From a virus (lineage: Duplodnaviria; Caudoviricetes): a DNA stretch of 50,255 bases. Position 1 is the first letter of the stretch, and each line of letters opens with the position of its first letter. A program made the translations under genes and the position numbers. The notes under the pieces were generated by a model. That model saw nothing but the letters and a program-made list of their open reading frames with translations. It was not told the origin of the DNA and ran no database searches. The stretch is from IMG/VR virus record IMGVR_UViG_3300030059_003698, positions 1 to 50,255 of that record. One strand, given 5' to 3'. Shown in pieces: positions 8,162-23,378 of the stretch.

Positions 8162-8374
8162 TTATGTCAGCCGGATGAATGAACCGAAGCTCTCAACCAC
8201 ACAGTCACGAGCCTCCATGGAAACCACCGCGCCTTGCTTGGCCGTTCGTACAACGAGCATTACCTGCAGGTCGCCGCCTCTTGCCACGGCCTGATGCGCC
8301 AGCTTGGTCATGCGCGCGCCTTTGAGTTCGTCTGCCATTGCCGCGAGGGCTTGTTCGATAGTGTTAATAGCCAT
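8162..8374 (-). CDS. Small hypothetical phage protein
   Basis: GGAGG RBS; operon position. Confidence 0.6.
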   Translation of the reverse strand: MAINTIEQALAAMADELKGARMTKLAHQAVARGGDLQVMLVVRTAKQGAVVSMEARDCVVESFGSFIRLT

Positions 8375-8377
8375 GGG

Positions 8378-8689
8378 TCACACCTCCCGGCGTAGCTGTG
8401 TATGAGGGCGCTGCATGCGCAGGCGGGCATTGTTGCGGTACTGGTCGTCGCCACTGTCGGTAGCCATGAACAACGAGAGCGCCAGCACCAGCGCAAGACG
8501 AATCCATTCCTGGGTAATGGCCAGGGCAACTAAGTGAGTAGTGTTGCGGGCCTTGACTCGCTCACAGGCCAGAATGATGTGGCGGCGAACGGTGCCTGCT
8601 GAACGGTGCATCATCGCTGCGCACTGCTCGGCGGTATTGCCTTGAGCAAGGAGAGTGACGATCTGTATTTGGCGCTTGGTAAGGTTCAT
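8378..8689 (-). CDS. Stand-alone LuxR/GerE-type HTH regulator, first gene of the PL operon
   Basis: LTKRQIQIVTLLAQG.TAEQCA..MHRSAGTVRRH..ARNTTHLVALA. Confidence 0.85.
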   Translation of the reverse strand: MNLTKRQIQIVTLLAQGNTAEQCAAMMHRSAGTVRRHIILACERVKARNTTHLVALAITQEWIRLALVLALSLFMATDSGDDQYRNNARLRMQRPHTQLRREV

Positions 8690-8719
8690 GGCTGCGCTTC
8701 CTTATGATTCGTTTTATGT

Positions 8720-8748
8720 AATTTATGGCACAAACCATAAAACGTCAA
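8720..8748 (-). promoter_or_regulatory. PL-like sigma70 promoter with embedded operator
   Basis: TTGACG-N17-TAAATT on the minus strand; inverted repeat TTATGG-N6-CCATAA (8723-8740) in the spacer. Confidence 0.75.
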
Positions 8749-8771
8749 GACTGAGCCATGATTTAGGCATG

Positions 8772-8797
8772 AAAAAATGCCGACTCAAAGTCGGCAT
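8772..8797 (-). terminator. Rho-independent terminator ending the LexA-box ORF transcript
   Basis: ATGCCGAC-TTTGA-GTCGGCAT hairpin plus T-run on the minus strand. Confidence 0.75.
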
Positions 8798-8821
8798 ATC
8801 TTTCTTAGGGTGGGTATTGCT

Positions 8822-9001
8822 TTATTTGAGGTTCGTCTTGGAGCCTTCGGCCCATTCGATAAGAGCTAGGTATAGATCGCTGCTGGCCGGGATGGGGGAG
8901 CAAGGAGAATCCTCAACAGCTACAAATTGATAAGAGAGCTCGCTGTTTGGGATATTTGTTTGTGGTATGAGCGCGCTTTGCTGGCGCTGACTGTCATTCA
9001 T
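8822..9001 (-). CDS. Small LexA-controlled protein, candidate antirepressor
   Basis: 59 aa from ATG 9001 (alternative start 9016), directly downstream of a perfect SOS box, with its own terminator. Confidence 0.55.
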   Translation of the reverse strand: MNDSQRQQSALIPQTNIPNSELSYQFVAVEDSPCSPIPASSDLYLALIEWAEGSKTNLK

Positions 9002-9025
9002 TTTTCTTTGCCCCATGACCAATAC

Positions 9026-9041
9026 CTGTATCTTTATACAG
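9026..9041. promoter_or_regulatory. LexA (SOS) box
   Basis: CTGTATCTTTATACAG = CTG-N10-CAG with AT-rich core, overlapping a minus-strand TATACT -10. Confidence 0.85.
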
Positions 9042-9353
9042 TATATTGAAAGTAGTGGTTTGACCACCCCTCAGGGGCACTAGCAGTGTAACTGTCGCAG
9101 TATTTATGTGCTGGTTGAAACAGGACTCAAGCGCTGGCGCTGTTCGGTTCATCGGTTCGCCTCATCTCAGATTGATTCTTCTTCCATTCTCCATGGATTG
9201 CGTGAGTTGCAAGGCCAGTACCGGGTATTGAGCGTTGATAACTTGCCACTTGCATATCGAGCAACCTGTGATAGGGAGAGAATAGGCTAGTTCGGGGTGG
9301 CGAACAGCCCCTCTGATTAGCGTGTTTAGATATACAGTGGTATTTGCTTAGGC

Positions 9354-9380
9354 AATAAAAAAGCCGCCTCTGGGGCGGCT
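9354..9380 (-). terminator. Terminator of the repressor operon
   Basis: AGCCGCC-CCAGA-GGCGGCT followed by TTTTTATT on the minus strand. Confidence 0.75.
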
Positions 9381-9401
9381 GATGCGGCGTTCGATGTAAG
9401 A

Positions 9402-10064
9402 CTATTGCGTAGCAGTTGAGGTGGGCAGACGCTCCAAGATGGATTCTTGGGTTGCCTGGATGCTATTTACTGCTTCACGGAATTCACTGCGCTCGTCAGC
9501 TGCACGCTGAATTTCAACTTGCGTCTCGCCGTAGGACTTGGCATAGCTACCTTGCTCGCTAATCCAGTAGCCAGCTACCGCAATCACAATAGCAAAACCA
9601 GCAAAAACGCCCGCAACAGTAGCCCAAGCTGTTGTGGTGGCATGCCGCCGGCTATTTTCTGACTCTTTTGTTACATCGTTGCGGAGACCTGTTATTTCAT
9701 CATAAAGCCGGTCGGTGATGCGCTCAAAACGGGCATCTGCCTGTTCTTGAAAGCGTTGCATAGATTCCACGCGAGCATCAAGCTTGCTTTCAATGCCAGC
9801 AAGTCGGGCGTCAACATACCTGTCTTGAGTGCTCATAGAGTGTTCACCTGGCTGAGGGTCAGCATCTGTCACACATTTGATTGGTGATACTAAATCAGAT
9901 TCGATTGTAAAGCCCGCGTTCAGATCACCAAGCTTTGAAGTCGATTTTAGGAAAATAGTTCCTAAAGTGAAACCTCTAGGGTCAACCACGTTTGCCCGCG
10001 TGTCGACGCCGGTATCAATCCTGTCATAAAAACTCGACGGCTCATGAGCATTCTTAGTTGCCAT
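9402..10064 (-). CDS. Single-TM coiled-coil protein in the repressor operon (lysogenic cargo)
   Basis: TM segment AWATVAGVFAGFAIVIAVAGYW flanked by coiled coils; start uncertain (10082, 10064 or 9836). Confidence 0.7.
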   Translation of the reverse strand: MATKNAHEPSSFYDRIDTGVDTRANVVDPRGFTLGTIFLKSTSKLGDLNAGFTIESDLVSPIKCVTDADPQPGEHSMSTQDRYVDARLAGIESKLDARVESMQRFQEQADARFERITDRLYDEITGLRNDVTKESENSRRHATTTAWATVAGVFAGFAIVIAVAGYWISEQGSYAKSYGETQVEIQRAADERSEFREAVNSIQATQESILERLPTSTATQ

Positions 10065-10377
10065 TGCGGACTTTCCATTCAAGCAGGGCGTGAAAAGAGA
10101 AATCTGCCATGTACCCGCAAGTGTCGCACCTTGATGTGAGAATTGGTATTGCTATTCGTTCAAAGGGTGGCTCCCCTTCATGAACGGTTTTCCAAGCAAT
10201 TGCAGGTTTATCTGGGATCTCTTTGAAGCTTCGGTGACGGCGGTTAATCGCTTTAAAAGCCACTAGCTCGTCTTGGCAAATGGGACAATTACCTTTGCTA
10301 GGCAAAGTGCTGAAAAAATCCACAACATCCTTGCATGTGACTTCTTCAACCATTTGCCGCCACTCATCACTGTACAT
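10054..10377 (-). CDS. Zinc-ribbon protein in the repressor operon
   Basis: CPIC and CDTCGY; AAGGA RBS. Confidence 0.7.
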   Translation of the reverse strand: MYSDEWRQMVEEVTCKDVVDFFSTLPSKGNCPICQDELVAFKAINRRHRSFKEIPDKPAIAWKTVHEGEPPFERIAIPILTSRCDTCGYMADFSFHALLEWKVRNGN

Positions 10378-10470
10378 AAGTCAATCCTTTACCATGCTGG
10401 GTGTTAGCAAAAAATGGTAGTCAATTTAGCTGAATTAGCTTTCGCATCTTGTTATTGCAGCAAACCATTG

Positions 10471-10509
10471 ATGCAGTAATGCAGTAATGCAGTAATGCAG
10501 TAATGCAGT
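10471..10509. repeat. Octamer tandem repeat (ATGCAGTA) x about 5
   Basis: atgcagta x4 plus atgcagt immediately after the repressor stop codon. Confidence 0.95.
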
Positions 10510-11001
10510 TTACTGGTCGTCGCTACGACCTTCAGCCTCATATATTAGCTTGCCGAGAATGTTGGATTTCGATTGACCTTGTTTCAGCATTTCGAATGCC
10601 GTCATAGCTAGGCGGGCACCTGCCATAGGATCAATACCATCATTGAGTGTGGCTCGTACTAGAGCCTCTTCCACCATCTCAAGCGCCATAACTGTCAGAT
10701 CGGATTCAGCAATTGGTTCGGACTGCTGTGGGTCGTCGGTTTTACATGCCAAGTAGCGAGCGCTCACCCCGTATTTGTTCGCAAGGGCGACCATAACGCT
10801 TGGGGGTACAGGCGTTCGCCCATGCTTCCAGTCGCCAACTGTCTGGGACGACCTGCCGGCATCGGCAGCGATTTTGGTGTTGATACCATGATCCGAGGGA
10901 TGCTGATGCACTTCCTGTGCGCGGGTCTTTATTCTCTCCCACACCCTTTTCCTTGTCTCCATCTCTTCATGAGAAGGACTTTGTGACGGCTGAGCAGTCA
11001 T
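10510..11001 (-). CDS. CI-like XRE-family repressor lacking an S24 autopeptidase domain
   Basis: HTH KIAADAGRSSQTVGDWKHG..P..LANKYGVSARYL; divergent from cro; only 163 aa. Confidence 0.85.
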   Translation of the reverse strand: MTAQPSQSPSHEEMETRKRVWERIKTRAQEVHQHPSDHGINTKIAADAGRSSQTVGDWKHGRTPVPPSVMVALANKYGVSARYLACKTDDPQQSEPIAESDLTVMALEMVEEALVRATLNDGIDPMAGARLAMTAFEMLKQGQSKSNILGKLIYEAEGRSDDQ

Positions 11002-11104
11002 GTGTCAGATGCTCCGATTCTGGCAAATACCAGTAAAAATCAAGTTAACGCCATATCTTAGCCGCCCTGGTCACGTTAGTAATTCATCAAATTTATGGAA
11101 TTTC

Positions 11105-11132
11105 TTGTATCTGGCATGGTTTAAACCATAAT
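11105..11132 (+). promoter_or_regulatory. PR-like promoter with palindromic operator
   Basis: TTGTAT-N16-CATAAT; perfect palindrome ATGGTTTAAACCAT (11116-11129), same ATGG-N6-CCAT core as at PL. Confidence 0.7.
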
Positions 11133-11165
11133 ATAGTCATTATAACCATGATCTAAGAGGTAGGT

Positions 11166-11453
11166 ATGACTGACATTGCTCAACAAACTCTTTCGCAGGC
11201 ACCAGAACCTGCTGTAAGTGTTCCTACTCGGCCTGTAACCCTTAGAGATGTCATTAAAGACTGCGGGGGCGCTTCTGCTGTCGCTGCAGGAATGGGTGTT
11301 GCGGCTCCAAGCGTATACGGATGGATGAGCCAAGGTCACTTACCTCTATCTGAGCTACATGGGAAGACTAATTACAGCGATCAGCTTGCCGCTATGCAGC
11401 GAAGCATGCGGTTGAGTGCGGTTGAGATTCGGCGACTAGGGCTGCGCCTCTAA
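11166..11453 (+). CDS. cro: Cro-like repressor
   Basis: IKDCGGASAVAAGMGVAAPSVYGW..GHLP; divergent from the CI-like gene. Confidence 0.85.
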   Translation: MTDIAQQTLSQAPEPAVSVPTRPVTLRDVIKDCGGASAVAAGMGVAAPSVYGWMSQGHLPLSELHGKTNYSDQLAAMQRSMRLSAVEIRRLGLRL

Positions 11454-11502
11454 TGCATTGCCTCATCTTTACAAATCCAACCAAGGCGCCAGGGGGTGCT
11501 TT

Positions 11503-12318
11503 ATGAGCAAGCAAGCCACTAGCAGCAAAGAAACGTTTAAATCCCTTAGCGCCTTTGCCCAAGAGCAAGCCCACTTAGTGCTGGCGCATTATCTGAAGGA
11601 CGGTGGCCCGGTGACAGGTGCGAACGCTAAGGAGTTGTGCGAGGAGGCCGCCCGCAACATCCGAGCGGCCTTTGCAGAGCTAGAGGGGCGCACTTCGCCT
11701 GATCAAGGCTCTGGTAGTGCTCCAACAGCTGAGGAGCAGGATCGCGCCATGTCCGCCGAGCCCGCTGACATTGAATGGATGCCGCTGGACGCGTGGGTGT
11801 CCGCAGCTACGACCGCCATTGGTGCGCAGCCGCCTTTCAAGCAATGGTCAGCCATATGCAGCACTGACCCTGATGGGCCTGTGTCCATCGTGACGCTATA
11901 TAAAGCCCCGAAGGGTTTCTATGAGGTTCGTTTTAGTGAGATGCCAAGGGGTGAAAACCTTGTGAAGTTACTTGAGGCCTCAGGCCCGGTCGCCTACGAC
12001 CCGTGGCGCAATACCCGTGAGGCTCAATCGCTTTTCGTGGAAGGCGTGGAGACGGCCAGGTTTGGATGCACTGTCGCCAACATGTCCGAGCCTATGCAAG
12101 TCGCTCGTGACTTGGTTTGTGCAGGCCTTTTGCGCCATGACGGTCACCCAATACTGACCGATCACGTGATGCAAGTGCTTGATCGTTGCCGGGTCACTTC
12201 ATCGCTCAAGCGCACCCATTACCCCGCCCGTCTTAGCGGGCAACGTATCGATGGGGCGCTGGCGCTGATTATGGCGGTGGGGCTGGTGCTGGGTGAAGGT
12301 AGCGGGGCTGCGGTATGA
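11503..12318 (+). CDS. Early protein with a diverged terminase-large-subunit nuclease-like C-terminal domain
   Basis: 23/65 ungapped identities to this phage's TerL (AYDPWR..TV.NMS..RH..P.LT) plus a YP..IDG..A..MA.G end. Confidence 0.75.
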   Translation: MSKQATSSKETFKSLSAFAQEQAHLVLAHYLKDGGPVTGANAKELCEEAARNIRAAFAELEGRTSPDQGSGSAPTAEEQDRAMSAEPADIEWMPLDAWVSAATTAIGAQPPFKQWSAICSTDPDGPVSIVTLYKAPKGFYEVRFSEMPRGENLVKLLEASGPVAYDPWRNTREAQSLFVEGVETARFGCTVANMSEPMQVARDLVCAGLLRHDGHPILTDHVMQVLDRCRVTSSLKRTHYPARLSGQRIDGALALIMAVGLVLGEGSGAAV

Positions 12319-12354
12319 ATATCAAACCATCCAAGCCATTCGACCCAGCGGTCA

Positions 12355-12600
12355 TTAGTGCCGCGGAAAGGCGCTTCCTTGAGAATCGCTCTTTTCCAGC
12401 ACATCAATTGCCGCCTGAATCCTCTCTATCAGCTCACGACCTTGAGCTGGTGTCATCGCGAACATTTGAGACTCTTGAGCTTCCTCGTTTTTTTGGAGCG
12501 CGTGACTCAAAAACTGGAACTTCAGAGCAATGATTTCGTGGGTGGGTACTGGCCCGATCTGCCAGCCAGCTACGGGAAATAGAGAAATTTCATTCGTCAT
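12355..12600 (-). CDS. bssS: BssS (YceP)-like biofilm regulator
   Basis: FPVAGWQIGPV..IIALKFQF..QMFAMTPAQGRELIERIQAAIDVLE..RH parallels E. coli BssS as recalled. Confidence 0.75.
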   Translation of the reverse strand: MTNEISLFPVAGWQIGPVPTHEIIALKFQFLSHALQKNEEAQESQMFAMTPAQGRELIERIQAAIDVLEKSDSQGSAFPRH

Positions 12601-12681
12601 TGTTCGACCTGTGATTGAGGTGTGTGAGAGCACTCAATCTAACCCTGGTCGAGTTTCTTTGCGAGTGGCAGGGGGTGCTGG

Positions 12682-13695
12682 ATGAGCATGCTCAACCTCC
12701 TAGACAGGCCAATAGCGTTCAACCGCACCTTCGTTGATCTGGGTATCGGCATCACTGGGGCGCTCATGCTATCGCAGTGCGTTTACTGGTCTACCCGTAC
12801 CAAGGACAGCGAAGGCTGGTTCTACAAGACGCAGGCTGAATGGACTGACGAAACGGGCATGACGCGCCGAGAGCAAGAGACCGCCCGTAAGAAGTTAGTC
12901 AGCAAGGGATACATCGAGGAGGTGCGCCGTGGCGTGCCTTGCAAAACCTATTACCGGCTTGATCGTGAGGCGCTGGAAGCCGCCCTTATTCAGGTTGCAC
13001 AAAAGCGCCATTCCAGTATGGCGGATTCCGCCAATCTAGAATGTACGAAAGCGCCATCCAGTATGGCGGAAAGCGCCAAACAAGATTGCACGGAAGCGCC
13101 TAACAGTGATGGCGGAAAGCGCCAAACTATTACAGAGATTACTACAGAGACTACAGCAGAGAGCACTCAGAAAGGCGCACCGGGGGCAAGCCCCGATGCA
13201 TCGGAGGGCGATTACCTGAGCGCTGACGAACCCCAAGCGGAAACCTCAGGCGATCAAGAGTCGGGAGCTGATCTGCTGGCGCGTATTCCTGCCGATATGC
13301 CGGGTACCCGTGACCCGAAAGCCAAAACGTTTAAACCCTGGGCGAACTACGCCTGTGCTTACCGTGCCCGTTACGGCACTTGGCCGGTCTGGAATCAAAA
13401 GGCTGGCGCGAACATGAGCCAGCTGGTCGACCGTGTGGGGGCTGAGCGTGCCCCCGCCGTGGCCGCGTACTACCTGAAACTCAACAGCCAGTTCTACACC
13501 TCACGCCTGCACCCCGTGGGCCTGCTCCTGCAGGACTGCGAATCCATCGCCACCCAACTCGCCACTGGCCAGCAGGTCACTCAGGCCAAAGCCCGCCAAG
13601 TGGACAGCACCCAAACCAACGCGAGCAACGCGGAGGAGGCTAAGCGCTGGCTAGCCGAACGCCGCCAACAGCAGGAGGCCGCATCATGCCGTTAA
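12682..13695 (+). CDS. Phage replication initiator (lambda O-like)
   Basis: LLDRPIAF..GALMLSQCVYW..WFYKTQAEWTDETG..EQETARKKL N-terminus; internal iterons. Confidence 0.85.
   Translation: MSMLNLLDRPIAFNRTFVDLGIGITGALMLSQCVYWSTRTKDSEGWFYKTQAEWTDETGMTRREQETARKKLVSKGYIEEVRRGVPCKTYYRLDREALEAALIQVAQKRHSSMADSANLECTKAPSSMAESAKQDCTEAPNSDGGKRQTITEITTETTAESTQKGAPGASPDASEGDYLSADEPQAETSGDQESGADLLARIPADMPGTRDPKAKTFKPWANYACAYRARYGTWPVWNQKAGANMSQLVDRVGAERAPAVAAYYLKLNSQFYTSRLHPVGLLLQDCESIATQLATGQQVTQAKARQVDSTQTNASNAEEAKRWLAERRQQQEAASCR
12995..13128 (+). repeat. Replication-origin iterons (six imperfect ~22-bp repeats, core GAAAGCGCCA)
   Basis: e.g. TATGGCGGAAAGCGCCAAAC, GATGGCGGAAAGCGCCAAAC, TATGGCGGATTCCGCCAATC inside the initiator gene. 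Confidence 0.75.
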
Positions 13696-14423
13696 CCCCT
13701 GAACAAATGGATCAGGTCGTTGATCTGGTTTACGCCACCGCGGAAGTGCTGGGTCAGGAGATCCGCCACAAGGCTGCCGGGCTGATCGCCGAAGACCTCA
13801 GCGCTTACCCCTTTGCCGAAATTGCCCGAGCGCTGGCCCGCTGCCGTGCCGAGCTACACGGCAAGCTGACCCTGGCGGCGATCATTGAGCGCCTACCTAG
13901 TGCGAACGCTCATTTGAGCGGTAACGAGGCGTGGGCGTTGGCGCTGAAAAGCACCGACGAGCAGGAGACGGTGGTTTGGACGCCGGAGATTGCCCGCGCC
14001 TTTGCCGCTGCTCAGCCGGTGCTGAGTGGTGACCGTCCGGACAAGATCGGTGCCCGCATGGCGTTCCTGGCTGCGTATGAGCGTGAGCTCTCCACCGCGA
14101 AAGCCGAAGCCCGCCAGCCAGAGTGGCAGGTGTCGCTAGGCCATGACCCGCAGCGCCGCGAGATCGTGCTGAACGATGCCGTGAGTGCTGGCAAGCTGCC
14201 CGCGCCTAAGGTGGCCCACTTACTGCCACCGCCTGATAAGCCGGTGACCGAAAAAGGCAAGCGCCAGCGTAAGCAGGTGGTCAGCAAGCTACGCGAGATC
14301 ATCAACCAGCCCGGTGACCAGAAAGCCCAAGAGCGCCGCGAAGCCCGCGAGCGTGAAGAGGCCCGCCGCCGTGAATTACTCGAACAAGCTGGCGTGCCGC
14401 TGGCTGCGATGGGAGGACGTTAA
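13686..14423 (+). CDS. Putative helicase loader / P-like replication protein
   Basis: Follows the initiator; ALARCRAEL..LTLAAII..EAWA..ARMAFLAAYER motifs. Confidence 0.7.
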   Translation: MPLTPEQMDQVVDLVYATAEVLGQEIRHKAAGLIAEDLSAYPFAEIARALARCRAELHGKLTLAAIIERLPSANAHLSGNEAWALALKSTDEQETVVWTPEIARAFAAAQPVLSGDRPDKIGARMAFLAAYERELSTAKAEARQPEWQVSLGHDPQRREIVLNDAVSAGKLPAPKVAHLLPPPDKPVTEKGKRQRKQVVSKLREIINQPGDQKAQERREAREREEARRRELLEQAGVPLAAMGGR

Positions 14424-14425
14424 TC

Positions 14426-14746
14426 ATGAATACCGCATTCCAACCGAGCGGCAACGAAGTAAAACGGGCTGCATTCAGCGATCACCGCCGTTCAGGCAAG
14501 CTCAGCGCCTCCCGCGGGCTAGTGACTGCCTCGCTGGTGAGCAAGGGCCCCATGACCCGCAACCAGTTGGCAGACGCTACCGGCCTACCGCTGGCCAGCA
14601 TTTGCGGCCGCTGCCGTGAGCTGCTCGATATGGATTACATCGAGGTCGCGGGCATGAGCGCCGATTCCCCAGCGCGCCAGGTGCTGGGGCTGACTGAAAG
14701 CGGTAAGGCGCTGGCCATGGATGCGGCTAAGGGGGTGGCGTCGTGA
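14426..14746 (+). CDS. Winged-helix DNA-binding protein
   Basis: GPMTRNQLADATGLPLASICGRCRELL. Confidence 0.75.
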   Translation: MNTAFQPSGNEVKRAAFSDHRRSGKLSASRGLVTASLVSKGPMTRNQLADATGLPLASICGRCRELLDMDYIEVAGMSADSPARQVLGLTESGKALAMDAAKGVAS

Positions 14747-15153
14747 AGCGATTAACAAAATCCGAGCGTGCAGATCTATTTGGCATGTTCGACGGCTGCT
14801 GTGCTTACTGCGGTGAAGAGCTAGGCCAGCGCTGGCATGCCGATCACGTCAAGGCTGTGCGTAGGCGTCATGAGTTATACCGGGATGGATCATCTGGATA
14901 TAAGACGCGCCTGGTGGGTGCAGATAAGCCCGAAAACCACGCTATTGATAATTTTATGCCCGCTTGCGCGCCCTGCAATCTCTCCAAAGCGACATACACC
15001 CTAGAGCAATGGCGCGATGTGCTGGCTGGCTACGTTGGTGCGCTGGATCGTAATGCGCCCACGTACCGCATGGCTAAGAAGTATGGGTTGATCGTGGAGA
15101 CCGATATTCGCGTGGAATTCCACTTTGAAAAACTTGCTCGGGAGGCTGCGTGA
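14743..15153 (+). CDS. HNH endonuclease
   Basis: CAYCG..WHADHV..NFMPACAPCNLSK. Confidence 0.9.
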   Translation: MKRLTKSERADLFGMFDGCCAYCGEELGQRWHADHVKAVRRRHELYRDGSSGYKTRLVGADKPENHAIDNFMPACAPCNLSKATYTLEQWRDVLAGYVGALDRNAPTYRMAKKYGLIVETDIRVEFHFEKLAREAA

Positions 15154-15506
15154 TGTCGCTTAACCCTATTGATCATCAAAACATCGTGCTGCGCTTGCTG
15201 GGCATGTCATCCAGTAACCCCGCACACCTCACCTCGCTTGCGCATTCCTACCAGATCCCGGTATCCCTGCATGAGATCCGCGTTGCTTGTGATGCGCTGG
15301 TAGAGCAGGAGTTTGTCGAGCGTGCCCCAGGGTTTGCCTATCGGCTGACGGCGTTTGGCACTGTTGAACTGCCTGCTGTGCCGTTGCTTGAGAGTTATTA
15401 CACGATGCCTCGCCACAGCACGGAGCCAAAGGTGGGCGATTCAGTTTGGCGGGGCGCTGACATGGCAGGAAAACAGCTCCCATACGCCGGGTGGGGTGAA
15501 TCATGA
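15150..15506 (+). CDS. Hypothetical phage protein (wHTH-like)
   Basis: Coupled ORF in the nin-like region. Confidence 0.6.
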   Translation: MMSLNPIDHQNIVLRLLGMSSSNPAHLTSLAHSYQIPVSLHEIRVACDALVEQEFVERAPGFAYRLTAFGTVELPAVPLLESYYTMPRHSTEPKVGDSVWRGADMAGKQLPYAGWGES

Positions 15507-15658
15507 CCCGCCAAGCCTACACACAACCCAAATGCCCACAGTGCCACTACCGCAAGGCCGCCAGTGAGTTTCGCGACCCGGCTACGGGCGAAGCATTGCC
15601 CGCATGTAAGCAATGCATGCGTATTGCACAGCGAGGAGGTCAGCGATGGACGGCGTAA
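15503..15658 (+). CDS. 51-aa zinc-ribbon protein (not in the ORF track)
   Basis: MTRQAYTQPKCPQCHYRK...ACKQCMR; ATGA overlap with the previous gene. Confidence 0.65.
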   Translation: MTRQAYTQPKCPQCHYRKAASEFRDPATGEALPACKQCMRIAQRGGQRWTA

Positions 15659-15837
15659 CGTGGTTTTTATTCGGCGTGCTGGTCGGTGTGTTTATGACTA
15701 TTGCCTGTGCGGCTGCCGCTTTTTGCAAGAGCAGCAGCAAGCCAGGTGGCCATGCTCCGCCTTTCCGGACACCGCCGCCACCTTTTGTAGAGAGGGCCAC
15801 TGGTATCAGCGAGCAGGGAGAGCATGACGATGCATGA
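15646..15837 (+). CDS. Small membrane protein
   Basis: GGAGG RBS; hydrophobic WFLFGVLVGVFMTIACAAAAF. Confidence 0.6.
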   Translation: MDGVTWFLFGVLVGVFMTIACAAAAFCKSSSKPGGHAPPFRTPPPPFVERATGISEQGEHDDA

Positions 15838-15969
15838 ACAACGGAAACAGCACTTCGCCAAGGTGAGGCGCCTCCAGATGATTATTTTGGCCGTCATAGT
15901 CATGGCTTCGCCGTTCTACGTCGCTATCTGCATAAAGCTTTGGCAATTGTTTATTGGCTGGGGGTGCTC

Positions 15970-16284
15970 ATGAGTCAGCAAAAAGGGGGATTGCAGGCCC
16001 GGCGAGCCGCGATGCTTTGCCAGAACGTCCGCTTTGGGCTGTACCTCGACCAGCGCCGCCGCCAAGCCAATGCCCTGGAGCATCGTGACCTTCCAGACGG
16101 TACTCACGGCCCCGAGGATTGCGCGGACTGGCTGCGCAAGGCGTGCGGCATCGAAAGCCGTGCCGAGCTAGACCATAACGACGCTGCCCGGGCAATGCTT
16201 GATCGCATCATGGCCGATTACAGCAAGTGGGAGCGCCAGCAAAGAATGATGGATCGCGTGTGCATGGGGGTGGGGAGTGAGTGA
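15970..16284 (+). CDS. Conserved phage protein
   Basis: AAMLCQN.RF..DWLRKACGIESRAELDHN motif. Confidence 0.75.
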   Translation: MSQQKGGLQARRAAMLCQNVRFGLYLDQRRRQANALEHRDLPDGTHGPEDCADWLRKACGIESRAELDHNDAARAMLDRIMADYSKWERQQRMMDRVCMGVGSE

Positions 16285-16753
16285 TAAGCCGGTAGTGCCT
16301 CAAGATTACATATATGGCCTAAAGGTCGTTGACATCGGCGATCTGCGCATAGCGCGTGGACAGACAAAGCGCCCGAGGGGCACATGTAAGCATCTTGATA
16401 TTGTTTATGACGATCAAGAGCGTCGTATCTGGTGCCAGGACTGCGAGCAGGAGGTAGAGGCATACGACGCGTTTAAGGGGCTGGCTGAGTTTCATTATAG
16501 CGCCCAAAACAAGTTAAAACGCCGAGAGGAAGCCGTTAAAGAGGCTGAATCATTCCAAGCCCGTAGCCGTGCCGTTAAAGCACTTGACCAGGTGTGGCGT
16601 AGCAAAAACATGACGCCCGTTTGCCCTTGCTGTGACAAAGGCTTGCTTCCGGAGGACTTCGCCAATGGCGTTCAGTCTCAAATGGATCGAAATCTTGCGC
16701 GGAAAATGCGCCAGCAGCGCTTGAGCGTAAAGAGCAAAGGAGGTGGGGCGTGA
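16277..16753 (+). CDS. Zn-binding hypothetical phage protein
   Basis: CKH..WCQDC and CPCC motifs. Confidence 0.7.
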   Translation: MSDKPVVPQDYIYGLKVVDIGDLRIARGQTKRPRGTCKHLDIVYDDQERRIWCQDCEQEVEAYDAFKGLAEFHYSAQNKLKRREEAVKEAESFQARSRAVKALDQVWRSKNMTPVCPCCDKGLLPEDFANGVQSQMDRNLARKMRQQRLSVKSKGGGA

Positions 16754-16917
16754 GGTGTTCAACGGTTCTTATTTTGGCTGGCGCTATGCATGTCGCTGTC
16801 TCAGTAGCGATGCAAATACGTGGCATGGAAGGTGCTGACCTAAAAAGCACAACAGGCGTGCTGTTGGTCGGCATGGGGTTTATTTGCATGGAAATTTCAA
16901 AGGCGGGCAGAAAATGA
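16750..16917 (+). CDS. 55-aa two-TM protein (not in the ORF track)
   Basis: GTG start after GGAGG; GTGA and ATGA overlaps; two hydrophobic stretches. Confidence 0.5.
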   Translation: MRCSTVLILAGAMHVAVSVAMQIRGMEGADLKSTTGVLLVGMGFICMEISKAGRK

Positions 16918-17273
16918 CTAAACCACTCCTCTATGCCGTGCTGTTAGTGATAGGCGTCGTTGTTCCCACGTGGCTGGCCCCCATCGCCCAAGGTGGGTTG
17001 GCTAACTTAGCGGTATTTGCTGCATGGGCTATCGGCTTGATGATCCTGGCTCTGGCGCTGATCGGTATCTTTCTGGATTCACCGTACGAGCCGCCCGTCA
17101 AGCTACCCAAGATATTGCGGTGGATTTTCGCCATAAGCTGGTGGAGTGCTGTCGCTTGGGCGGCTTACCACGGCATGTATGGCTTGGCAGCGTTGCACAC
17201 CCTGAGCTCCTTGCTTCTTAGCCTCAATAAGTCGCGCAAGGTGCGGCAGCATAAAGGGGGCTCTAATGTTTGA
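16914..17273 (+). CDS. Multi-TM membrane protein
   Basis: About four hydrophobic segments; ATGA overlap. Confidence 0.65.
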   Translation: MTKPLLYAVLLVIGVVVPTWLAPIAQGGLANLAVFAAWAIGLMILALALIGIFLDSPYEPPVKLPKILRWIFAISWWSAVAWAAYHGMYGLAALHTLSSLLLSLNKSRKVRQHKGGSNV

Positions 17274-17700
17274 ATTATCACGCCGTAGGTTTCTGCAGCT
17301 GCTTGGCGCCGCTTTCGCGTCAGGTGTCAGTGTTCCAGCGCTTTCAATTGGGCGGGAGCCATACGTGCACGTGGGGAGTTGCGTTGATTACATCGGCCCG
17401 CGTGGTAAAGACTCGCGTTCATTCATCGGCGGCAAGGCTGTTCGTGCTGTTCATCCCTGGGACGGCACCGGCTTCCCAGTGGATCTACATAACGGCTTTT
17501 TCAGCAGGCATGGCGCGTTAGAGCGTTTCTACGATTTTGAGCTATGCAATTTCAGTGAGGAGGTGCCGCCCAGGTTTTGGCATAGCGAAGAAAATCGCCG
17601 CCTGTATAACAACGTTCACACCTACGTCAGAACCAAGCGCTTTGGCGAATCAATTGAAGAGGCCGTGAAGGCTTTGAATTTATATGGTGCACGCTCATGA
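17266..17700 (+). CDS. Protein with twin-arginine (Tat)-like signal peptide
   Basis: LSRRRFLQLLGAAFASGVSVPALS. Confidence 0.65.
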   Translation: MFELSRRRFLQLLGAAFASGVSVPALSIGREPYVHVGSCVDYIGPRGKDSRSFIGGKAVRAVHPWDGTGFPVDLHNGFFSRHGALERFYDFELCNFSEEVPPRFWHSEENRRLYNNVHTYVRTKRFGESIEEAVKALNLYGARS

Positions 17701-18203
17701 GCCTACCTATTAAAGCGACACGCCGACCCCGCAAATTGAAAGCAGACGGCACGCCCCGCGCCCGACCAGTGGATTGGGAGGGCCAAGAGCAGGCGGTGCT
17801 AATCCGCTGGCTGCTGGGCGAGAAGAAGCGCGGGGAGTTGGTAGGTCAGCTATACGACGCCATCTACCATGTTCCCAATGGTGGCCAACGCAGCAAGAGC
17901 ACCGGCGCGGCGATGAAGCGGCAGGGCGTTAAGTCAGGCGTGAGTGACCTAGTGATTATGGATGCCCGCGGGGGGTGGCACGGGCTTTACATGGAATTCA
18001 AGGCATCGCCCCCGCATACCGCGGCCCTTGCCGATAGCCAGCATGATTGGCTGGCGCTGGCCGAGGAACGCGGCTATTGCGCGGTGTTGGCCGTAGGGCT
18101 TGAAGAAGCCAAGCATGTGCTCGAGGAGTATGCGCGAATGGGGCCTTCTTATAGCCACTACACAAAAGCACCTCTTGGCGGCACCGAGTGGAGAAAGGGC
18201 TAA
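17697..18203 (+). CDS. VRR-NUC domain nuclease
   Basis: HVPNGG.R..GVKSGVSDL..LYMEFKA..Q..W. Confidence 0.9.
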   Translation: MSLPIKATRRPRKLKADGTPRARPVDWEGQEQAVLIRWLLGEKKRGELVGQLYDAIYHVPNGGQRSKSTGAAMKRQGVKSGVSDLVIMDARGGWHGLYMEFKASPPHTAALADSQHDWLALAEERGYCAVLAVGLEEAKHVLEEYARMGPSYSHYTKAPLGGTEWRKG

Positions 18204-18865
18204 TGGGCATGGCATTGATGAAAGAAGAGGCTGAATCTATGGCGCGTGACTATCAGCGTATGGGCATTCGTGAACTGAGAGAGCATGCGCGCAGTACCCA
18301 CCCAGAGCATGATCCGGAAGCGGCGCGGGCGTTTGTAGATCGTATAATTGATATGGAGGCAGAGCGCCTTACATGGCACTGGCACGAGAACCAGGGCTAT
18401 CAGCCGTTTAGCTCTGCCGCGAAGGCGGGCGAGCAGCCGGGCGGAGGATCGGCTGCCGCAGAGCCCTTAGCTATTGCCTATGAGCGAGGCATGCGGGTAC
18501 ATGCGGGTCACGAGTTCGCAAGGGAGTGGCTGGAAGCGGCTCGATTACGCCCACGCGCTAGGCTGGCGGTGTTGATCCGCGCCGCTAAGCTCTACCCGAT
18601 GGCGGCACAGCAGCAAGCGCTATGGGCCAAGAGCTATGATTTCATTGCCCAGCACTTGCCTATTTATTCGCGCATGCTGCAAATGGGGTCGCTTTCGACC
18701 ATGACTGAGATCAAGCAGGTTGAGGTGGTTCGGGTCACTGAGAAAGAAACGTACCGGCGTTCGCGCAATGAGCATAAGAGCGTGCCGATCTTCAAGAACG
18801 GGCAGGCGGTGAAGGATGCCGCTAAGCAGGCGAGGGTACAGCTATTGCTTCTGGCGCAGGTCTGA
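18203..18865 (+). CDS. Putative late antiterminator (Q-like, assigned by position)
   Basis: Last early gene, directly before a pR'-like promoter, a terminator and the lysis genes. Confidence 0.55.
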   Translation: MGMALMKEEAESMARDYQRMGIRELREHARSTHPEHDPEAARAFVDRIIDMEAERLTWHWHENQGYQPFSSAAKAGEQPGGGSAAAEPLAIAYERGMRVHAGHEFAREWLEAARLRPRARLAVLIRAAKLYPMAAQQQALWAKSYDFIAQHLPIYSRMLQMGSLSTMTEIKQVEVVRVTEKETYRRSRNEHKSVPIFKNGQAVKDAAKQARVQLLLLAQV

Positions 18866-18876
18866 AACACCAGATG

Positions 18877-18905
18877 TTGTATTAACTCCACGACTGATCT
18901 ACTAT
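18877..18905 (+). promoter_or_regulatory. Late promoter, pR'-like
   Basis: TTGTAT-N17-TACTAT. Confidence 0.7.
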
Positions 18906-18950
18906 GTTTCTAGGCTGGCGCTCAATGACGCTAGCCGCCACACACACCAT

Positions 18951-18981
18951 AAAGCCCTGCCGGTCACCCGGCGGGGCTTTT
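18951..18981 (+). terminator. tR'-like terminator
   Basis: AAAGCCCTGCCGG-TCAC-CCGGCGGGGCTTTT. Confidence 0.8.
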
Positions 18982-18989
18982 GCGTTTCT

Positions 18990-19065
18990 AGCGGTCGAGA
19001 CAGCCGGTTAAGTCGCTGGGCTCATAACCCGGAGATACGTGGTTCGATTCCACGGGCCGCTACCA
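18990..19065 (+). tRNA. tRNA with CAT anticodon, initiator(fMet)-like, with non-canonical positions
   Basis: Acceptor AGCGGTC/GGCCGCT, anticodon arm CTGGG-CTCATAA-CCCGG, T arm CGTGG-TTCGATT-CCACG, encoded CCA. Confidence 0.85.
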
Positions 19066-21662: not shown

Positions 21663-23378
21663 ATGGCCAGCTACCCGAACGTCAACGCCGCGAACAAGTA
21701 CGCTCGGGACGTAGTGGCCAAAAAGATTCCCGCGTGCAAGGAGGTACGGCAGGCCTGCCAACGCCACCTGGACGATCTCAAGGCGCAGAAGTCCCGATCA
21801 TATCCGTACCGGTTCGATAAGGAAGAAGCCGAACGGTGTTGTGACTTCATTCAACTACTGCCACACACCAAGGGCCGATGGGCGCGTGAGAAGCGGCTCA
21901 TCACGCTTGAGCCCTGGCAACTGTTTATCGTTGCTTGCATTTTTGGTTGGCTCAAAAAGAAAACCGGACTACGCCGCTTTTCAGAGGCATACATTGAAGT
22001 AGAGCGTAAGAACGGCAAATCAGTGTTGGCAGCTGCGATTGCCAACCTGCTGTTTTGCGCCGATGGCGAGTACGGCGCAGAAGTCTACTGTGGCGCGACC
22101 ACAGAGAAACAAGCCTGGGAAGTGTTTCGGCCTGCACGCTTGATGCTGAAGAAGTCGCCCGCGCTGGTCAGTGCGGCCGGCATCGAGATCATGGCCAAGA
22201 ACATCTCGATACCAGAGGACGGTTCGCGGTTAGAGCCATTGATTGGTGATCCAGGTGACGGCTCCTCGCCAAGCGGCTCGATAGTCGATGAGTTCCACGA
22301 ACACGATAAGCCCAACCTGTACGACACCATGGCTACCGGCATGGGGTCACGCGATCAGGGGCTAATGTTCATCATTACCACCGCGGGCTTCAACCTGGCC
22401 GGGCCTTGTTACGACAAGCGCCGTCAGGCGCAGCAAATGCTTGATAAATCGCTGCCGAATGATGAGCTGTTCGCCGTTATTTATACCATTGATGCTGGCG
22501 ACGATTGGAAAGACCCCGCGATACTGCGCAAGGCTAACCCCAACTTCGGTATATCGGTGGGGGAAGAGTTCTTACTCAAGGCCCAACGCGACGCAGTTCG
22601 CTACCCCAGCCGACAAAACAGCTTCCTCACTAAGCACCTGAATGTCTGGGTGAGTGCGCGCACTGCGTGGCTCAACATGGCCAGCTGGCACGCGCTGGGT
22701 GATGAGTCGTTAAAGATAGAAGACTTCATCGGCCAGGCCTGCTGGTTAGGCGTGGATCTCGCCAGTAAGACCGACATCGCAAGCATCGCGCTGCTGTTCC
22801 GTGACGAAGTGCCCGACAAGAAAGGGCGCATGAAAACCCGCTGGACGGTGTTCGTTCGTAACTACCTGCCGGAAGGCGCGGTGGAACGGGCCAGCAACAA
22901 CAAGGCCGCTTATGAAACCTGGGTGAATAGCGGTGACCTGATTATCACCGATGGTGAAGAGCTCGACTTCGATGTGATCCGCGATGACATCAAAGACCTG
23001 GCGGGCTTATTCGAGATCACAGAAATTGCCTACGACCCCTGGCGTGCTACCCAGCTTGCCCACCAGTTAATGGCAGACGGCGCGAGCATCGTCGAGTACC
23101 GCAACACTGTTCAAAACATGAGCCCCGCCATGCGGGAAATGGAAGCCGCTATCACAGGCGGGCGCTTCCGGCATGCCAAGGATCCGGTGCTTACCTGGAT
23201 GGCCAGCAACGTGGTCGCCAAGGCAGACGCCAAAGACAACATCTACCCACGCAAAGAAAAGCCCGACAACAAGATCGACGGCATCATCGCCATCTTGATG
23301 GCGCTCGGTCGCGCCGTGCTCACCGAAAACGACGAGCCGGAAGAATCCATTCATGACACCTCGGACGTTACATGCTGA
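21663..23378 (+). CDS. terL: Terminase large subunit
   Basis: LEPWQ, Walker A RKNGKS, Walker B IVDEFHEH, ITTAG; nuclease motifs GVDLA, YDPW, KIDG. Confidence 0.97.
   Translation: MASYPNVNAANKYARDVVAKKIPACKEVRQACQRHLDDLKAQKSRSYPYRFDKEEAERCCDFIQLLPHTKGRWAREKRLITLEPWQLFIVACIFGWLKKKTGLRRFSEAYIEVERKNGKSVLAAAIANLLFCADGEYGAEVYCGATTEKQAWEVFRPARLMLKKSPALVSAAGIEIMAKNISIPEDGSRLEPLIGDPGDGSSPSGSIVDEFHEHDKPNLYDTMATGMGSRDQGLMFIITTAGFNLAGPCYDKRRQAQQMLDKSLPNDELFAVIYTIDAGDDWKDPAILRKANPNFGISVGEEFLLKAQRDAVRYPSRQNSFLTKHLNVWVSARTAWLNMASWHALGDESLKIEDFIGQACWLGVDLASKTDIASIALLFRDEVPDKKGRMKTRWTVFVRNYLPEGAVERASNNKAAYETWVNSGDLIITDGEELDFDVIRDDIKDLAGLFEITEIAYDPWRATQLAHQLMADGASIVEYRNTVQNMSPAMREMEAAITGGRFRHAKDPVLTWMASNVVAKADAKDNIYPRKEKPDNKIDGIIAILMALGRAVLTENDEPEESIHDTSDVTC

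What the first reader, a model, noticed from the sequence alone, without database searches (positions are those of the whole stretch)
11503..12318. Early gene encoding a diverged, probably inactive copy of the terminase nuclease domain (candidate decoy or packaging inhibitor)
Seen: the gene right after cro (the CII slot) aligns to this phage's own TerL C-terminal domain. PVAYDPWRNTREAQSL..TVANMSEPM..GLLRHDGHPILT vs EIAYDPWRATQLAHQL..TVQNMSPAM..GRFRHAKDPVLT gives 23/65 ungapped identities; WMPLDAW matches WLNMASW and YPARLSGQRIDGALALIMAVG matches YPRKEKPDNKIDGIIAILMALG. It has no ATPase domain, the first catalytic Asp strand (WLGVDLA) is replaced by WSAICST, and it carries an unrelated ~65-aa N-terminal helical domain. 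The ORF is intact with an RBS, so it does not look like a decayed fragment. Established: Avs (STAND) defence receptors recognise the large terminase. Inference: an early-expressed terminase mimic that titrates such sensors, or a dominant-negative regulator of packaging.
Basis: partly seen in the sequence, partly recalled or inferred. Interest (0 to 1): 0.85.

Follow-up and report, generated by a model that had tools for sequence, protein, structure and literature searches.

The report
Free-standing altered terminase-nuclease copy, early operon
A Vreelandella (Halomonas-group) prophage carries, right after its cro gene, a conserved but fast-evolving free-standing copy of the DNA-cutting half of the phage packaging enzyme, with one key catalytic residue swapped for cysteine; its function is untested.

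Summary
Window 11503-12318 (+) encodes a 271-aa protein. Residues about 88-267 are a TerL nuclease (RNase H-like) domain: BLASTP to the phage's own TerL E 3e-14, profile-profile E 5e-29, confident AF2 model whose best solved match is HK97 TerL. There is no ATPase domain. The first catalytic Asp (57 of 57 TerLs) is Cys or Ser in 12 of 12 family members. The other two Asp are kept in 12 of 12 and 11 of 12.

It is not a decayed fragment. It belongs to a small family (3 of 342 Halomonadaceae species genomes, plus marine metagenomes). It always sits between cro and the replication genes, with swappable N-terminal extensions. dN/dS is 0.19-0.34, against 0.03-0.05 for TerL.

It is not a recent copy of this phage's TerL. 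The TerLs of two carrier phages are 98.9% identical, while their paralog cores are 69% identical.

"Probably not a terminase-type nuclease" is supported. "Avs decoy" and "packaging inhibitor" remain untested. Published data on terminase look-alikes show that they trigger Avs2 rather than block it.

This scan has noted dead terminase-nuclease copies before on other DNA (P1-like phage-plasmids, a cyanophage). Those notes were not checked here.

The parts
11503..12318 (+). Gene for the 271-aa free-standing TerL-nuclease-like protein (P0001), stop codon included
11491..11496 (+). Shine-Dalgarno-like AGGGGG, 6 nt before the ATG
   Evidence: Read directly from the sequence
11503..11754 (+). N-terminal module (aa 1-84): three short helices (8-13, 17-33, 42-60), a disordered linker and helix 76-84. 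Not terminase-related. It occurs elsewhere as a free small protein, and also fused behind a Cro domain.
   Evidence: pLDDT 58-80. P0014 80 aa at 70% identity, P0021 71 aa, P0011. P0044 is a P22_Cro domain plus this module.
11755..12318 (+). TerL-nuclease (RNase H-like) core, aa 85-271. It is about 46 residues shorter than the own TerL between strand 1 and the AYDPW strand.
11857..11859 (+). Codon TGC for Cys119, at the column of the first catalytic Asp (own TerL D365, taken by order to be HK97 D302)
   Evidence: The column is D in 57 of 57 TerLs and is C in 11 and S in 1 of the 12 family members. HK97 residue names come from PMC9410871 (passage read). The D302 equivalence is by order of the three Asp, not by a direct alignment to 6z6d.
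11998..12000 (+). Codon GAC for Asp166 (AYDPW), the second catalytic Asp (HK97 D388), retained
   Evidence: 12 of 12 family members
12250..12252 (+). Codon GAT for Asp250 (RIDG), the third catalytic Asp (HK97 D471), retained
   Evidence: 11 of 12 family members (N in P0015)
11166..11453 (+). Cro-like gene immediately upstream (context)
   Evidence: weak YdaS and P22_Cro hits, below the Pfam cut-offs
10510..11001 (-). CI-like HTH repressor gene, divergent from cro (context)
12355..12633 (-). BssS-family gene on the opposite strand, directly downstream. It is an optional, movable cassette (context).
   Evidence: PF13991, E 5e-20
12682..13695 (+). O-like replication initiator gene (context)
21663..23378 (+). 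The phage's working large terminase (571 aa, ATPase plus nuclease). It follows an HNH endonuclease gene (20657-21073) and TerS (21186-21656), and precedes the portal gene (23569-24846).

Best explanation
The gene encodes a real, selection-maintained, free-standing paralogue of the nuclease (RNase H-like) domain of HK97-type large terminases. It travels as a movable cassette in the variable slot between cro and the replication genes of HK97-like prophages of Halomonadaceae. In this phage the cassette is fused to an unrelated small helical module.

From its position and orientation it is inferred to be transcribed with the early right operon. This is not shown.

The first metal-binding Asp of the terminase active site is replaced by a conserved Cys. 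The protein is therefore unlikely to cut DNA the way a terminase does, and most likely works by binding through a terminase-like surface.

TerL and portal are almost invariant among the carrier phages, while this protein changes fast under purifying selection. Its partner is therefore more likely something variable outside the packaging machine (a host factor such as a terminase-sensing defence protein, or a competing element) than the phage's own portal, TerS or TerL.

Shown: fold, altered active site, family, synteny, selection, mosaic mobility. Inferred: early expression, non-cutting, binding mode, kind of partner.
For: Fold and homology.

Active site: the three columns that are Asp in 57 of 57 full-length TerLs read C/S (0 of 12 Asp), D (12 of 12) and D (11 of 12) in the family. 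hhalign confirms this. Two of these columns map onto HK97 D388 and D471 through. PMC9410871 names D302, D388 and D471 as the catalytic centre.

Family:
- 9 relatives in the 5.8-billion-protein search, one of them sharing only the N module.
- 5 representatives covering the whole core among 232 hits in the 1.84-billion-protein library.
- 3 of 342 Halomonadaceae species genomes.
- 4 further metagenome loci at 45-51% identity, two of which (L030 and L033) appear to be the same element, plus an identical copy on a 57-kb marine scaffold.

Synteny (CI/Cro, then the paralog, then replication genes): seen in the window, L003, L004, L005 and L030.

Selection: the core has dN/dS 0.19-0.34 in 6 of 6 pairs, Fisher p from 5e-15 to 0.007. 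The TerL nuclease domain has 0.03-0.05 in the same phages.

Decoupling from the packaging genes:
- Window against the V. titanicae prophage: TerL 98.9% aa identity (dN 0.005), paralog core 69% (dN 0.19).
- Portal 94.8% identical over 305 aa.

Mobility:
- The N-terminal extensions differ among clades.
- 75-98-bp direct repeats flank the cassette in L003, L004 and L005.
- The BssS module lies downstream of the paralog here and upstream of it in L003.
Against: - No expression data were found. No promoter was detected by the consensus scan on the + strand, so co-transcription with cro is only positional inference.
- The replacement Cys is conserved in 11 of 12 members. Asp166, Asp250, His212 and a basic residue at the HK97 K463 column (R in 9, H in 2, K in 1) are also kept. 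The pocket may therefore still bind a metal or even catalyse something.
- dN/dS of 0.2-0.3 together with high dN also fits weak constraint on a passenger gene.
- Core pI ranges from 5.3 to 9.7 among members, so no conserved charged surface points to DNA or to one partner.
- The alignment of the N-terminal half depends on the method. One MAFFT run misplaced strand 1.
- No binding partner was identified by any search.
Confidence: 0.4

Rival explanations
1. Packaging regulator or interference factor. The free nuclease-like domain occupies a site that TerL's nuclease domain uses (the portal clip, a neighbouring TerL subunit, the HNH helper or cos DNA). It thereby delays, tunes or blocks packaging, either of this phage or of related superinfecting phages.
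For: [quoted passage not shown] The phage has the HK97-type module of HNH, TerS, TerL and portal. The C-terminal half keeps TerL-conserved motifs: AYDPW, NMS..P.M, H212, RIDG..A..MA. TerLs of this type are common in the host family, in about 35 of 342 genomes, so a cross-acting inhibitor would have targets.
Against: TerL (98.9%) and portal (94.8%) are nearly invariant between two carrier phages whose paralog cores are 69% identical. That is not expected for an interface with them. An early-expressed blocker of the phage's own packaging would be self-harming. The paralog lacks about 46 residues that the own TerL has between strand 1 and AYDPW. PMC9410871 proposes that an extra element in the HK97 nuclease domain may be a platform for the HNH partner. 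Whether the missing stretch is that element was not established. The early HNH gene of this phage is absent from the other carrier loci. The V. lutescens remnant keeps the gene although no terminase (PF20441, PF03354 or PF03237) was found in that genome.
Confidence: 0.2
2. Remodelled enzyme. The pocket formed by Cys119, Asp166, Asp250, His212 and possibly His239 binds a different metal (for example Zn or Fe). The protein is then an active nuclease or other hydrolase serving early functions such as replication, recombination or host nucleic-acid attack.
For: The residue replacing the first Asp is not random. It is Cys in 11 of 12 members that share only 30-50% identity. Two catalytic Asp, the conserved His and a basic residue at the HK97 K463 column are retained. 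The most conserved stretches of the family are those around the active site. The gene sits directly upstream of the replication genes. RuvC and Ydc2 resolvases appear as weaker fold matches (E 9e-3).
Against: In the 57 TerLs examined that Asp never varies, and PMC9410871 places its HK97 counterpart in the catalytic centre. The second conserved Asp of the strand-1 loop (D371, 98% of TerLs) is also lost, to G, A or E. The most divergent member also has Asn at the third Asp.
Confidence: 0.2
3. Antagonist or decoy of terminase-sensing immunity. An early-made nuclease-face mimic engages Avs3-like, Avs2-like or other sensors without completing the interface needed for their oligomerisation.
For: Passages of PMC13601566 say that SeAvs3 extensively binds the terminase nuclease domain in its native conformation and recognises active-site residues. 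They also say that KpAvs2 can be activated by some nuclease domains. The model's fold matches PhiV-1 terminase in the Avs3 complex 8dgc (E 2e-4). Fast evolution under purifying selection, decoupled from TerL, fits an arms-race partner. Loss of cutting activity would make early expression safe (inference).
Against: In the same paper, isolated nuclease domains gave little or no EcAvs2 toxicity. The known terminase look-alikes (vs.8, Ksap1, Ksap2) activate Avs2 and are discussed as triggers, not inhibitors. A mimic that binds would be expected to trigger a sensor earlier unless shown otherwise. The active-site Asp that Avs3 is said to read is the residue changed here. Whether Halomonadaceae hosts carry such sensors was not tested. 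Four literature searches found no described terminase-derived decoy.
Confidence: 0.12
4. Weakly constrained passenger. A terminase fragment captured long ago is carried along by recombination in a mosaic hotspot, with little or no function.
For: Narrow distribution, 3 of 342 species genomes. High dN. Variable N- and C-terminal ends. Location in a slot with optional cassettes and flanking repeats.
Against: Frames are intact in all loci examined. dN/dS is significantly below 1 in 6 of 6 pairs, including the closest pair (dS 0.14, p 0.007). 25 columns are invariant and 32 more nearly invariant across members down to 30% identity. The AF2 model is a confident compact fold.
Confidence: 0.08

Closest known systems
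Nuclease domain of the HK97 large terminase gp2 (PDB 6Z6D; Pfam PF20441 with PF03354, the HK97-type TerL)
   Same: It is the best solved match by sequence (profile E 5e-6) and by fold (Foldseek E 1e-10, 215 columns). Both have an RNase H-like core with the auxiliary beta-hairpin. The counterparts of D388 and D471 are kept, and the K463 column holds a basic residue (residue names from PMC9410871).
   Different: There is no ATPase domain. The column taken to be D302 is Cys. The core is about 46 residues shorter between strand 1 and the second Asp. The gene is encoded in the early region, not between TerS and portal. It evolves about 35 times faster in dN.
Compact terminase nuclease domains of Thermus phages G20c and P74-26 (PDB 5M1F, 5M1K, 5TGE)
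   Same: Similar size and fold. TM-score normalised to the target is 0.56-0.62.
   Different: Those are excised domains of full TerLs. The depositors' titles report bound Mg, Co or Ca. Sequence identity is 12-14%.
C-terminal 'vestigial nuclease' domain of the phi29 packaging ATPase gp16
   Same: It is a precedent for a terminase nuclease fold that has lost cutting activity and is kept for another role. The introduction of PMC9410871 describes it as an inactive vestigial nuclease domain.
   Different: It is still fused to the ATPase and part of the motor. It was not compared with this protein by any search here. The resemblance is conceptual.
T4 vs.8, a free-standing paralogue of the terminase ATPase domain
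   Same: It is a stand-alone copy of one half of TerL, restricted to a phage lineage and of unknown function. It is the one documented case where such a copy meets a terminase sensor (PMC13601566).
   Different: It is the other half of TerL, with Walker motifs kept. It activates EcAvs2 rather than blocking it.
Dead terminase-nuclease copies noted earlier by this scan (P1-like phage-plasmids of Citrobacter, Pseudomonas and Vibrio; a cyanophage)
   Same: They are free-standing, selection-maintained nuclease-domain copies with lost catalytic residues and unknown partners (AI notes listed, not checked here).
   Different: They derive from PacB-type or T4-type terminases, sit in other genomic positions, and are reported to have lost all three catalytic residues in at least one case. 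Here two of three are kept and the gene sits in the cro-to-replication slot of an HK97-like prophage.

Membership tests
TerL nuclease domain (Pfam PF20441; RNase H-like terminase nuclease fold) | Sequence match above the curated Pfam cut-off | tested here: met
   32 bits against a cut-off of 24, but only model positions 184-281 of 286. Relatives score 18.9-38 bits. hhalign against a TerL profile covers the whole domain at E 5e-29.
TerL nuclease domain (Pfam PF20441; RNase H-like terminase nuclease fold) | RNase H-like fold with the terminase-specific beta-hairpin | tested here: met
   AF2 pLDDT is about 90 or more over most 10-residue blocks from residue 91 to 260. The model has strands 113-119, 127-134, 140-147, 163-165, 184-186 and a hairpin at 226-231 and 237-242. 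The top PDB and BFVD matches are terminases.
TerL nuclease domain (Pfam PF20441; RNase H-like terminase nuclease fold) | Three catalytic Asp (HK97 D302, D388, D471) | tested here: not met
   The first is Cys119 (Asp in 0 of 12 family members, against 57 of 57 TerLs). The second and third are kept in 12 of 12 and 11 of 12 (PMC9410871).
Functional large terminase (TerL) | N-terminal packaging ATPase domain with Walker motifs | tested here: not met
   No PF03354 or other ATPase match. Residues 1-84 are a short helical module.
Functional large terminase (TerL) | Gene lies in the packaging module beside TerS and portal | tested here: not met
   It lies between cro and the replication genes, about 10 kb upstream of HNH-TerS-TerL-portal. 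The layout is the same in V. titanicae.
Split terminase ('terminase TerL endonuclease subunit', the name NCBI gives P0006 and P0010) | A matching separate ATPase-only TerL gene that the nuclease subunit would complete | tested here: not met
   The carrier phages have a complete 571-aa TerL with both domains. No NCBIfam model matches the paralog.
Anti-defence decoy or inhibitor of terminase sensors (Avs1-3, Upx) | Binds the sensor and prevents its activation by TerL | not testable with these tools
   No sensor sequence was at hand. Only literature passages were read. No PADLOC match, which says nothing about anti-defence.
Lambda CII-type lysogeny regulator (same genomic slot) | Small HTH transcription activator | tested here: not met
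   No HTH or CII family match in Pfam or PHROGs. The fold is RNase H-like.

The most novel reading that the evidence does not exclude
The protein is an early-made antagonist of terminase-sensing immune receptors. It presents the nuclease face of TerL, made harmless by the Asp-to-Cys change and lacking the ATPase half. It would occupy Avs3-like or Avs2-like sensors without allowing the oligomerisation that TerL triggers. That would be the first phage counter-defence built from a piece of the sensed protein itself.
Probability: 0.12. Interest if true: 0.85.

Novelty: new variant of a known kind. Interest (0 to 1): 0.5.

Why it matters
Large terminase is the most conserved enzyme of tailed phages and a main target of bacterial pattern-recognition immunity. 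Free-standing copies of its halves keep turning up (T4 vs.8 in print; several AI notes of this scan), and none has an established function.

This case is clean. It is a compact, confidently folded nuclease-domain copy under purifying selection. Its evolution is decoupled from TerL and portal. It has a conserved Asp-to-Cys swap in the active site. It sits in a defined early-operon slot of inducible prophages of culturable, non-pathogenic marine bacteria.

That makes three ideas directly testable: a binder, a remodelled enzyme, or an immune antagonist.

RefSeq's name for its relatives ("terminase TerL endonuclease subunit") also misleads, because these phages have a complete TerL.

Tried and rejected
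1. Complex prediction of the paralog core (85-271, alignment A5) with the phage portal (alignment A6). The verdict was 'no answer' (score 0.00, mark 0.32). The controls were not run. This counts neither for nor against binding.

2. Expression. No RNA holder was listed. The laid runs were short DNA contigs that show strain variants only.

3. Partner idea: the early HNH endonuclease (14743-15153). It has no counterpart in L003, L004, L005, L030, L031 or L032, so the idea was dropped.

4. Idea that the N module is related to the 80-aa coiled-coil gene upstream in V. titanicae, or to the N-terminus of P0015. BLASTP found nothing.

5. 'Recent duplicate of the own TerL' was rejected.
- The own TerL is 24th of 57 TerLs by BLASTP bits (58.9 against a best of 66.2).
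- It is 2nd of 57 by the family HMM (84.0 against 85.4).
- In a quick IQ-TREE the family (SH-aLRT 99, stem 1.17) groups with two compact TerLs (P0147 and P0154, support 95), apart from the own TerL.
- The careful tree search did not finish. The tree is unrooted and the family is a long branch.

6. MAFFT runs disagree on the N-terminal half. One search agrees with hhalign, one search does not. I rely on hhalign and the predicted strand. One search paired E141 with TerL D435, which hhalign does not reproduce, so I dropped it.

7. Searches that found nothing useful.
- NCBIfam and PADLOC gave no match for the paralog.
- GenBank phages: 128 records matched, none covering 80% of the query. All 25 listed hits lie in terminase genes.
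- Viral-contig scans with P0013 and P0015 found nothing. With the family alignment, the scan found only a 34% match to residues 151-265, which was not examined further.

The pdb_via library was absent. Model coordinates are not exposed, so the geometry of the Cys/His/Asp pocket could not be measured. Paper supplements were not opened. The supplementary figures of PMC9410871 (position of the extra element) and of PMC13601566 (nuclease-domain constructs) may bear on the claims.

9. Not in print as far as searched. Searches found no paper describing a free-standing terminase nuclease-domain paralogue or a terminase-derived decoy. Kala et al. 2014 on HNH helpers and Gao et al. 2022 on Avs are recalled, not read here.
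Full report
WHAT IS THERE

The window is a 50,255-bp provirus record. The ORF at 11503-12318 (+) gives 271 residues. Its ATG is preceded by AGGGGG six bases upstream. A longer TTG-started frame from 11458 exists, but close homologues start with the same MSKQAT.

The gene follows a Cro-like gene (11166-11453) by 49 bases. The Cro-like gene is divergent from a CI-like HTH gene (10510-11001, minus strand). Downstream lie a BssS-family gene on the other strand (12355-12633) and an O-like replication initiator (12682-13695). About 10 kb further on lies an HK97-type packaging module: HNH endonuclease, TerS, a 571-aa TerL with both Pfam domains, portal, protease and major capsid protein.

CHECK OF THE OBSERVATION

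BLASTP of the protein against the phage's own TerL gives 35/111 identities, E 3e-14. Pfam TerL_nuclease is passed (32 bits, cut-off 24), but only over the last third of the model.

hhalign of the 12-member family against 28 TerLs aligns 176 columns (residues 88-267 to TerL 332-558) at probability 99.8%, E 5e-29. It pairs WMPLDAW with WLNMASW, WSAICST with WLGVDLA, and YPAR with YPRK.

An AF2 model built on an 81-sequence alignment has mean pLDDT 87, and about 90 or more over most 10-residue blocks from residue 91 to 260. It shows the strand-helix order of an RNase H fold plus a beta-hairpin. Its best solved matches are HK97 TerL (6z6d, E 1e-10), the G20c and P74-26 terminase nucleases, and PhiV-1 terminase from the Avs3 complex. 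The viral library returns terminases. The only solved relative by sequence is 6z6d. Residues 1-84 are three short helices, a disordered linker and one more helix, with no family match.

THE ACTIVE SITE

In 57 full-length TerLs, three columns are always Asp (own TerL D365, D458, D539). A fourth (D371) is Asp in 98%. The alignment to 6z6d maps D458 and D539 onto HK97 D388 and D471. Fung et al. name D302, D388 and D471 as the catalytic centre, with K463 reaching into it (PMC9410871, passages read). By order, D365 is D302.

In the 12 family members the columns read as follows:
- First column: Cys in 11, Ser in 1, never Asp.
- D371 column: Gly, Ala or Glu.
- Second Asp: kept in 12 of 12.
- Third Asp: kept in 11 of 12.
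- K463 column: Arg in 9, His in 2, Lys in 1.

So the canonical two-metal site is broken at its first ligand. The replacement is itself conserved, and the rest of the pocket is kept. "Not a terminase-type nuclease" is well supported. "Inert" is not shown.

The core is about 46 residues shorter than the own TerL between strand 1 and the AYDPW strand. HK97-type TerLs carry an extra element in the nuclease domain that Fung et al. suggest may serve the HNH partner. I could not establish whether the missing stretch is that element. In a quick tree the family groups with two TerLs that are also compact there, so the short form may be ancestral rather than a deletion.

A FAMILY, NOT A FRAGMENT

- The 5.8-billion-protein search found nine relatives. 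Three are at 86-91% identity. V. titanicae is at 65%. Four are at 50-53%, including V. lionensis. One shares only the N module.
- The exhaustive representative library found 232 hits. Only five cover the whole core, including two distant ones (P0013 and P0015, 38-39%). The rest match only residues about 162-265 and are TerLs or pieces of them.
- In 342 Halomonadaceae species genomes, three carry the paralog, while about 35 carry a TerL that the profile's C-terminal part matches.
- Marine metagenomes add an identical copy on a 57-kb scaffold and four loci at 45-51% identity, two of which (L030 and L033) appear to be the same element.
- No GenBank phage isolate has it.
- In every locus with context the gene lies between a divergent CI/Cro pair and the replication genes. 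These loci are the window, V. titanicae L003, V. lionensis L004, V. lutescens L005 and marine L030.

SELECTION AND TEMPO

Nei-Gojobori dN/dS of the core is 0.19-0.34 in six of six pairs. Each is below 1 by Fisher's test (p from 5e-15 to 0.007), including the closest pair (dS 0.14). The nuclease domain of TerL in the same phages gives 0.03-0.05.

The window phage and the V. titanicae prophage have TerLs that are 98.9% identical (dN 0.005) and portals 94.8% identical over 305 residues. Their paralog cores are 69% identical (dN 0.19).

The paralog is therefore old, maintained and fast, and its changes are not tracking TerL or portal. The own TerL is not its closest TerL by BLAST (24th of 57). It is 2nd of 57 by the family HMM, with small differences in score. 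In the quick tree the family is one long-stemmed clade apart from the own TerL (unrooted, careful search unfinished).

MOSAIC MOBILITY

- The N-terminal extension differs by clade. It is the helical module here and in three close relatives, an unrelated 120-residue stretch in V. titanicae, about 35 residues in V. lionensis and V. lutescens, and other sequences in P0013 and P0015.
- The window's N module occurs alone (P0014, P0021), joined to an unrelated tail (P0011), and fused behind a P22_Cro domain (P0044). It is a post-cro module that has been joined to the cassette.
- In L003, L004 and L005 the cassette is bracketed by 75-98-bp direct repeats. Translations suggest that these repeats encode the hydrophobic C-terminal tail of the flanking ORFs and end in a ribosome site and an ATGA junction. 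The window's gene ends in a similar junction.
- The BssS module is downstream of the paralog here and upstream of it in V. titanicae. It is skipped in a short contig of a close relative.
- V. lutescens keeps the gene intact in an approximately 11-kb remnant that runs from the early genes to the lysis genes. No terminase or portal was found nearby, and no PF20441, PF03354 or PF03237 terminase was found in the whole assembly. Its neighbours there are also largely intact, so this is weak evidence.

WHAT IT MOST LIKELY DOES

I commit to a non-cutting, terminase-shaped binding protein made with the early right operon (confidence 0.4). Early expression is a positional inference. The consensus scan found no + strand promoter, and only one + strand terminator-like site, which lies upstream inside the repressor gene.

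Its partner is more likely variable and outside the packaging machine, for two reasons. TerL and portal barely change where the paralog changes a lot. An early blocker of one's own packaging would also be costly.

The rivals are:
- A packaging regulator or interference factor (0.2). It is favoured by the HK97 motor architecture, where nuclease domains sit under the portal clip (passages of 10.1101/2023.02.24.529869).
- A remodelled enzyme using the Cys/Asp/Asp/His pocket (0.2).
- A weakly constrained passenger (0.08).

On the decoy, passages of Evans et al. 2026 (PMC13601566) cut both ways. SeAvs3 binds the native nuclease domain extensively and reads active-site residues, and KpAvs2 can be set off by some nuclease domains. 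But EcAvs2 and Upx need only the ATPase domain, and the known terminase look-alikes (vs.8, Ksap1/2) are activators. PMC11564622 (passages) likewise places the predicted KpAvs2 contact on the ATPase domain.

COMPARISON AND NOVELTY

By fold and sequence this is a member of the TerL nuclease domain superfamily. It fails the tests for a working terminase:
- no ATPase domain;
- first catalytic Asp absent;
- wrong genomic module.

It also fails the test for a split terminase, because the phage has a complete TerL. The RefSeq name of its relatives is therefore misleading.

Conceptual precedents are the vestigial nuclease domain of phi29 gp16 (mentioned in PMC9410871) and free-standing ATPase-half copies such as T4 vs.8. 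This scan has flagged dead nuclease-domain copies in P1-like phage-plasmids and a cyanophage (AI notes, unchecked).

I found no paper describing such a protein. I rate it a new variant of a known kind, of moderate interest. It is real, tidy and testable, but its function is open.

Noticed in passing
window 12293-12670 (BssS gene 12355-12633, minus strand): The BssS-family cassette is optional and movable. A 336-nt contig of a close relative joins 12292 to 12671 with 48 other letters in between. In V. titanicae the same module (about 80% nt identity) lies upstream of the paralog instead of downstream. Three marine loci (L030, L031, L032) keep only its C-terminal half.
   Followed up: partly
L003 9213-9299 and 10864-10950; L004 3610-3707 and 4774-4871; L005 9821-9895 and 10846-10920: Direct repeats of 75-98 bp (77-85% identical) bracket the paralog cassette. 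Translations of flanking ORFs suggest that they encode the hydrophobic C-terminal tail of those ORFs and end in GGAGG...ATGA junctions. They look like recombination linkers for cassette exchange. The window has no such repeat pair.
   Followed up: partly
window 12038-12064 (aa 179-188 of the paralog): A cluster of seven changes, all at first or second codon positions, separates the window from a close relative seen in two runs of one sample (X2 and X3). The window reads FVEGVETARFG where the relative P0003 reads FEAGVEVVEFR and the family consensus reads AGVEVVEFR. This is a local hypervariable or recombined patch.
   Followed up: no
L005 about 8200-19600 (V. lutescens, G003:C2): A prophage remnant of about 11 kb. 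It has a truncated S24-only repressor fragment, early genes, an intact paralog, replication genes and a lysis cassette. There are no packaging, head or tail genes within 17 kb downstream or 11 kb upstream. No PF20441, PF03354 or PF03237 terminase was found in the assembly.
   Followed up: partly
window 14743-15153 and 20657-21073: There are two HNH endonuclease genes. One is in the early operon (phrog_2118) and is absent from the related prophages examined. The other is in the HK97-type position just before TerS and is conserved in V. titanicae (75% aa identity).
   Followed up: partly
window 9402-10082 (minus strand): The 226-aa protein behind the repressor gives a weak PADLOC match to LeoBC (E 1.5e-4, 19 bits).
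   Followed up: no
P0044 (164 aa, from the representative library): A P22_Cro domain (E 3.5e-13) fused to the same helical module that forms the N-terminus of the window's protein. This suggests that the module normally works next to, or with, Cro.
   Followed up: no
L004 4397-4870 and residues 1-110 of P0006 (V. titanicae): The N-terminal extension of the V. titanicae paralog resembles a separate 157-aa ORF that lies just downstream of the paralog in V. lionensis. This is another sign of shuffling around the cassette. Whether these stretches are truly coding was not checked.
   Followed up: no
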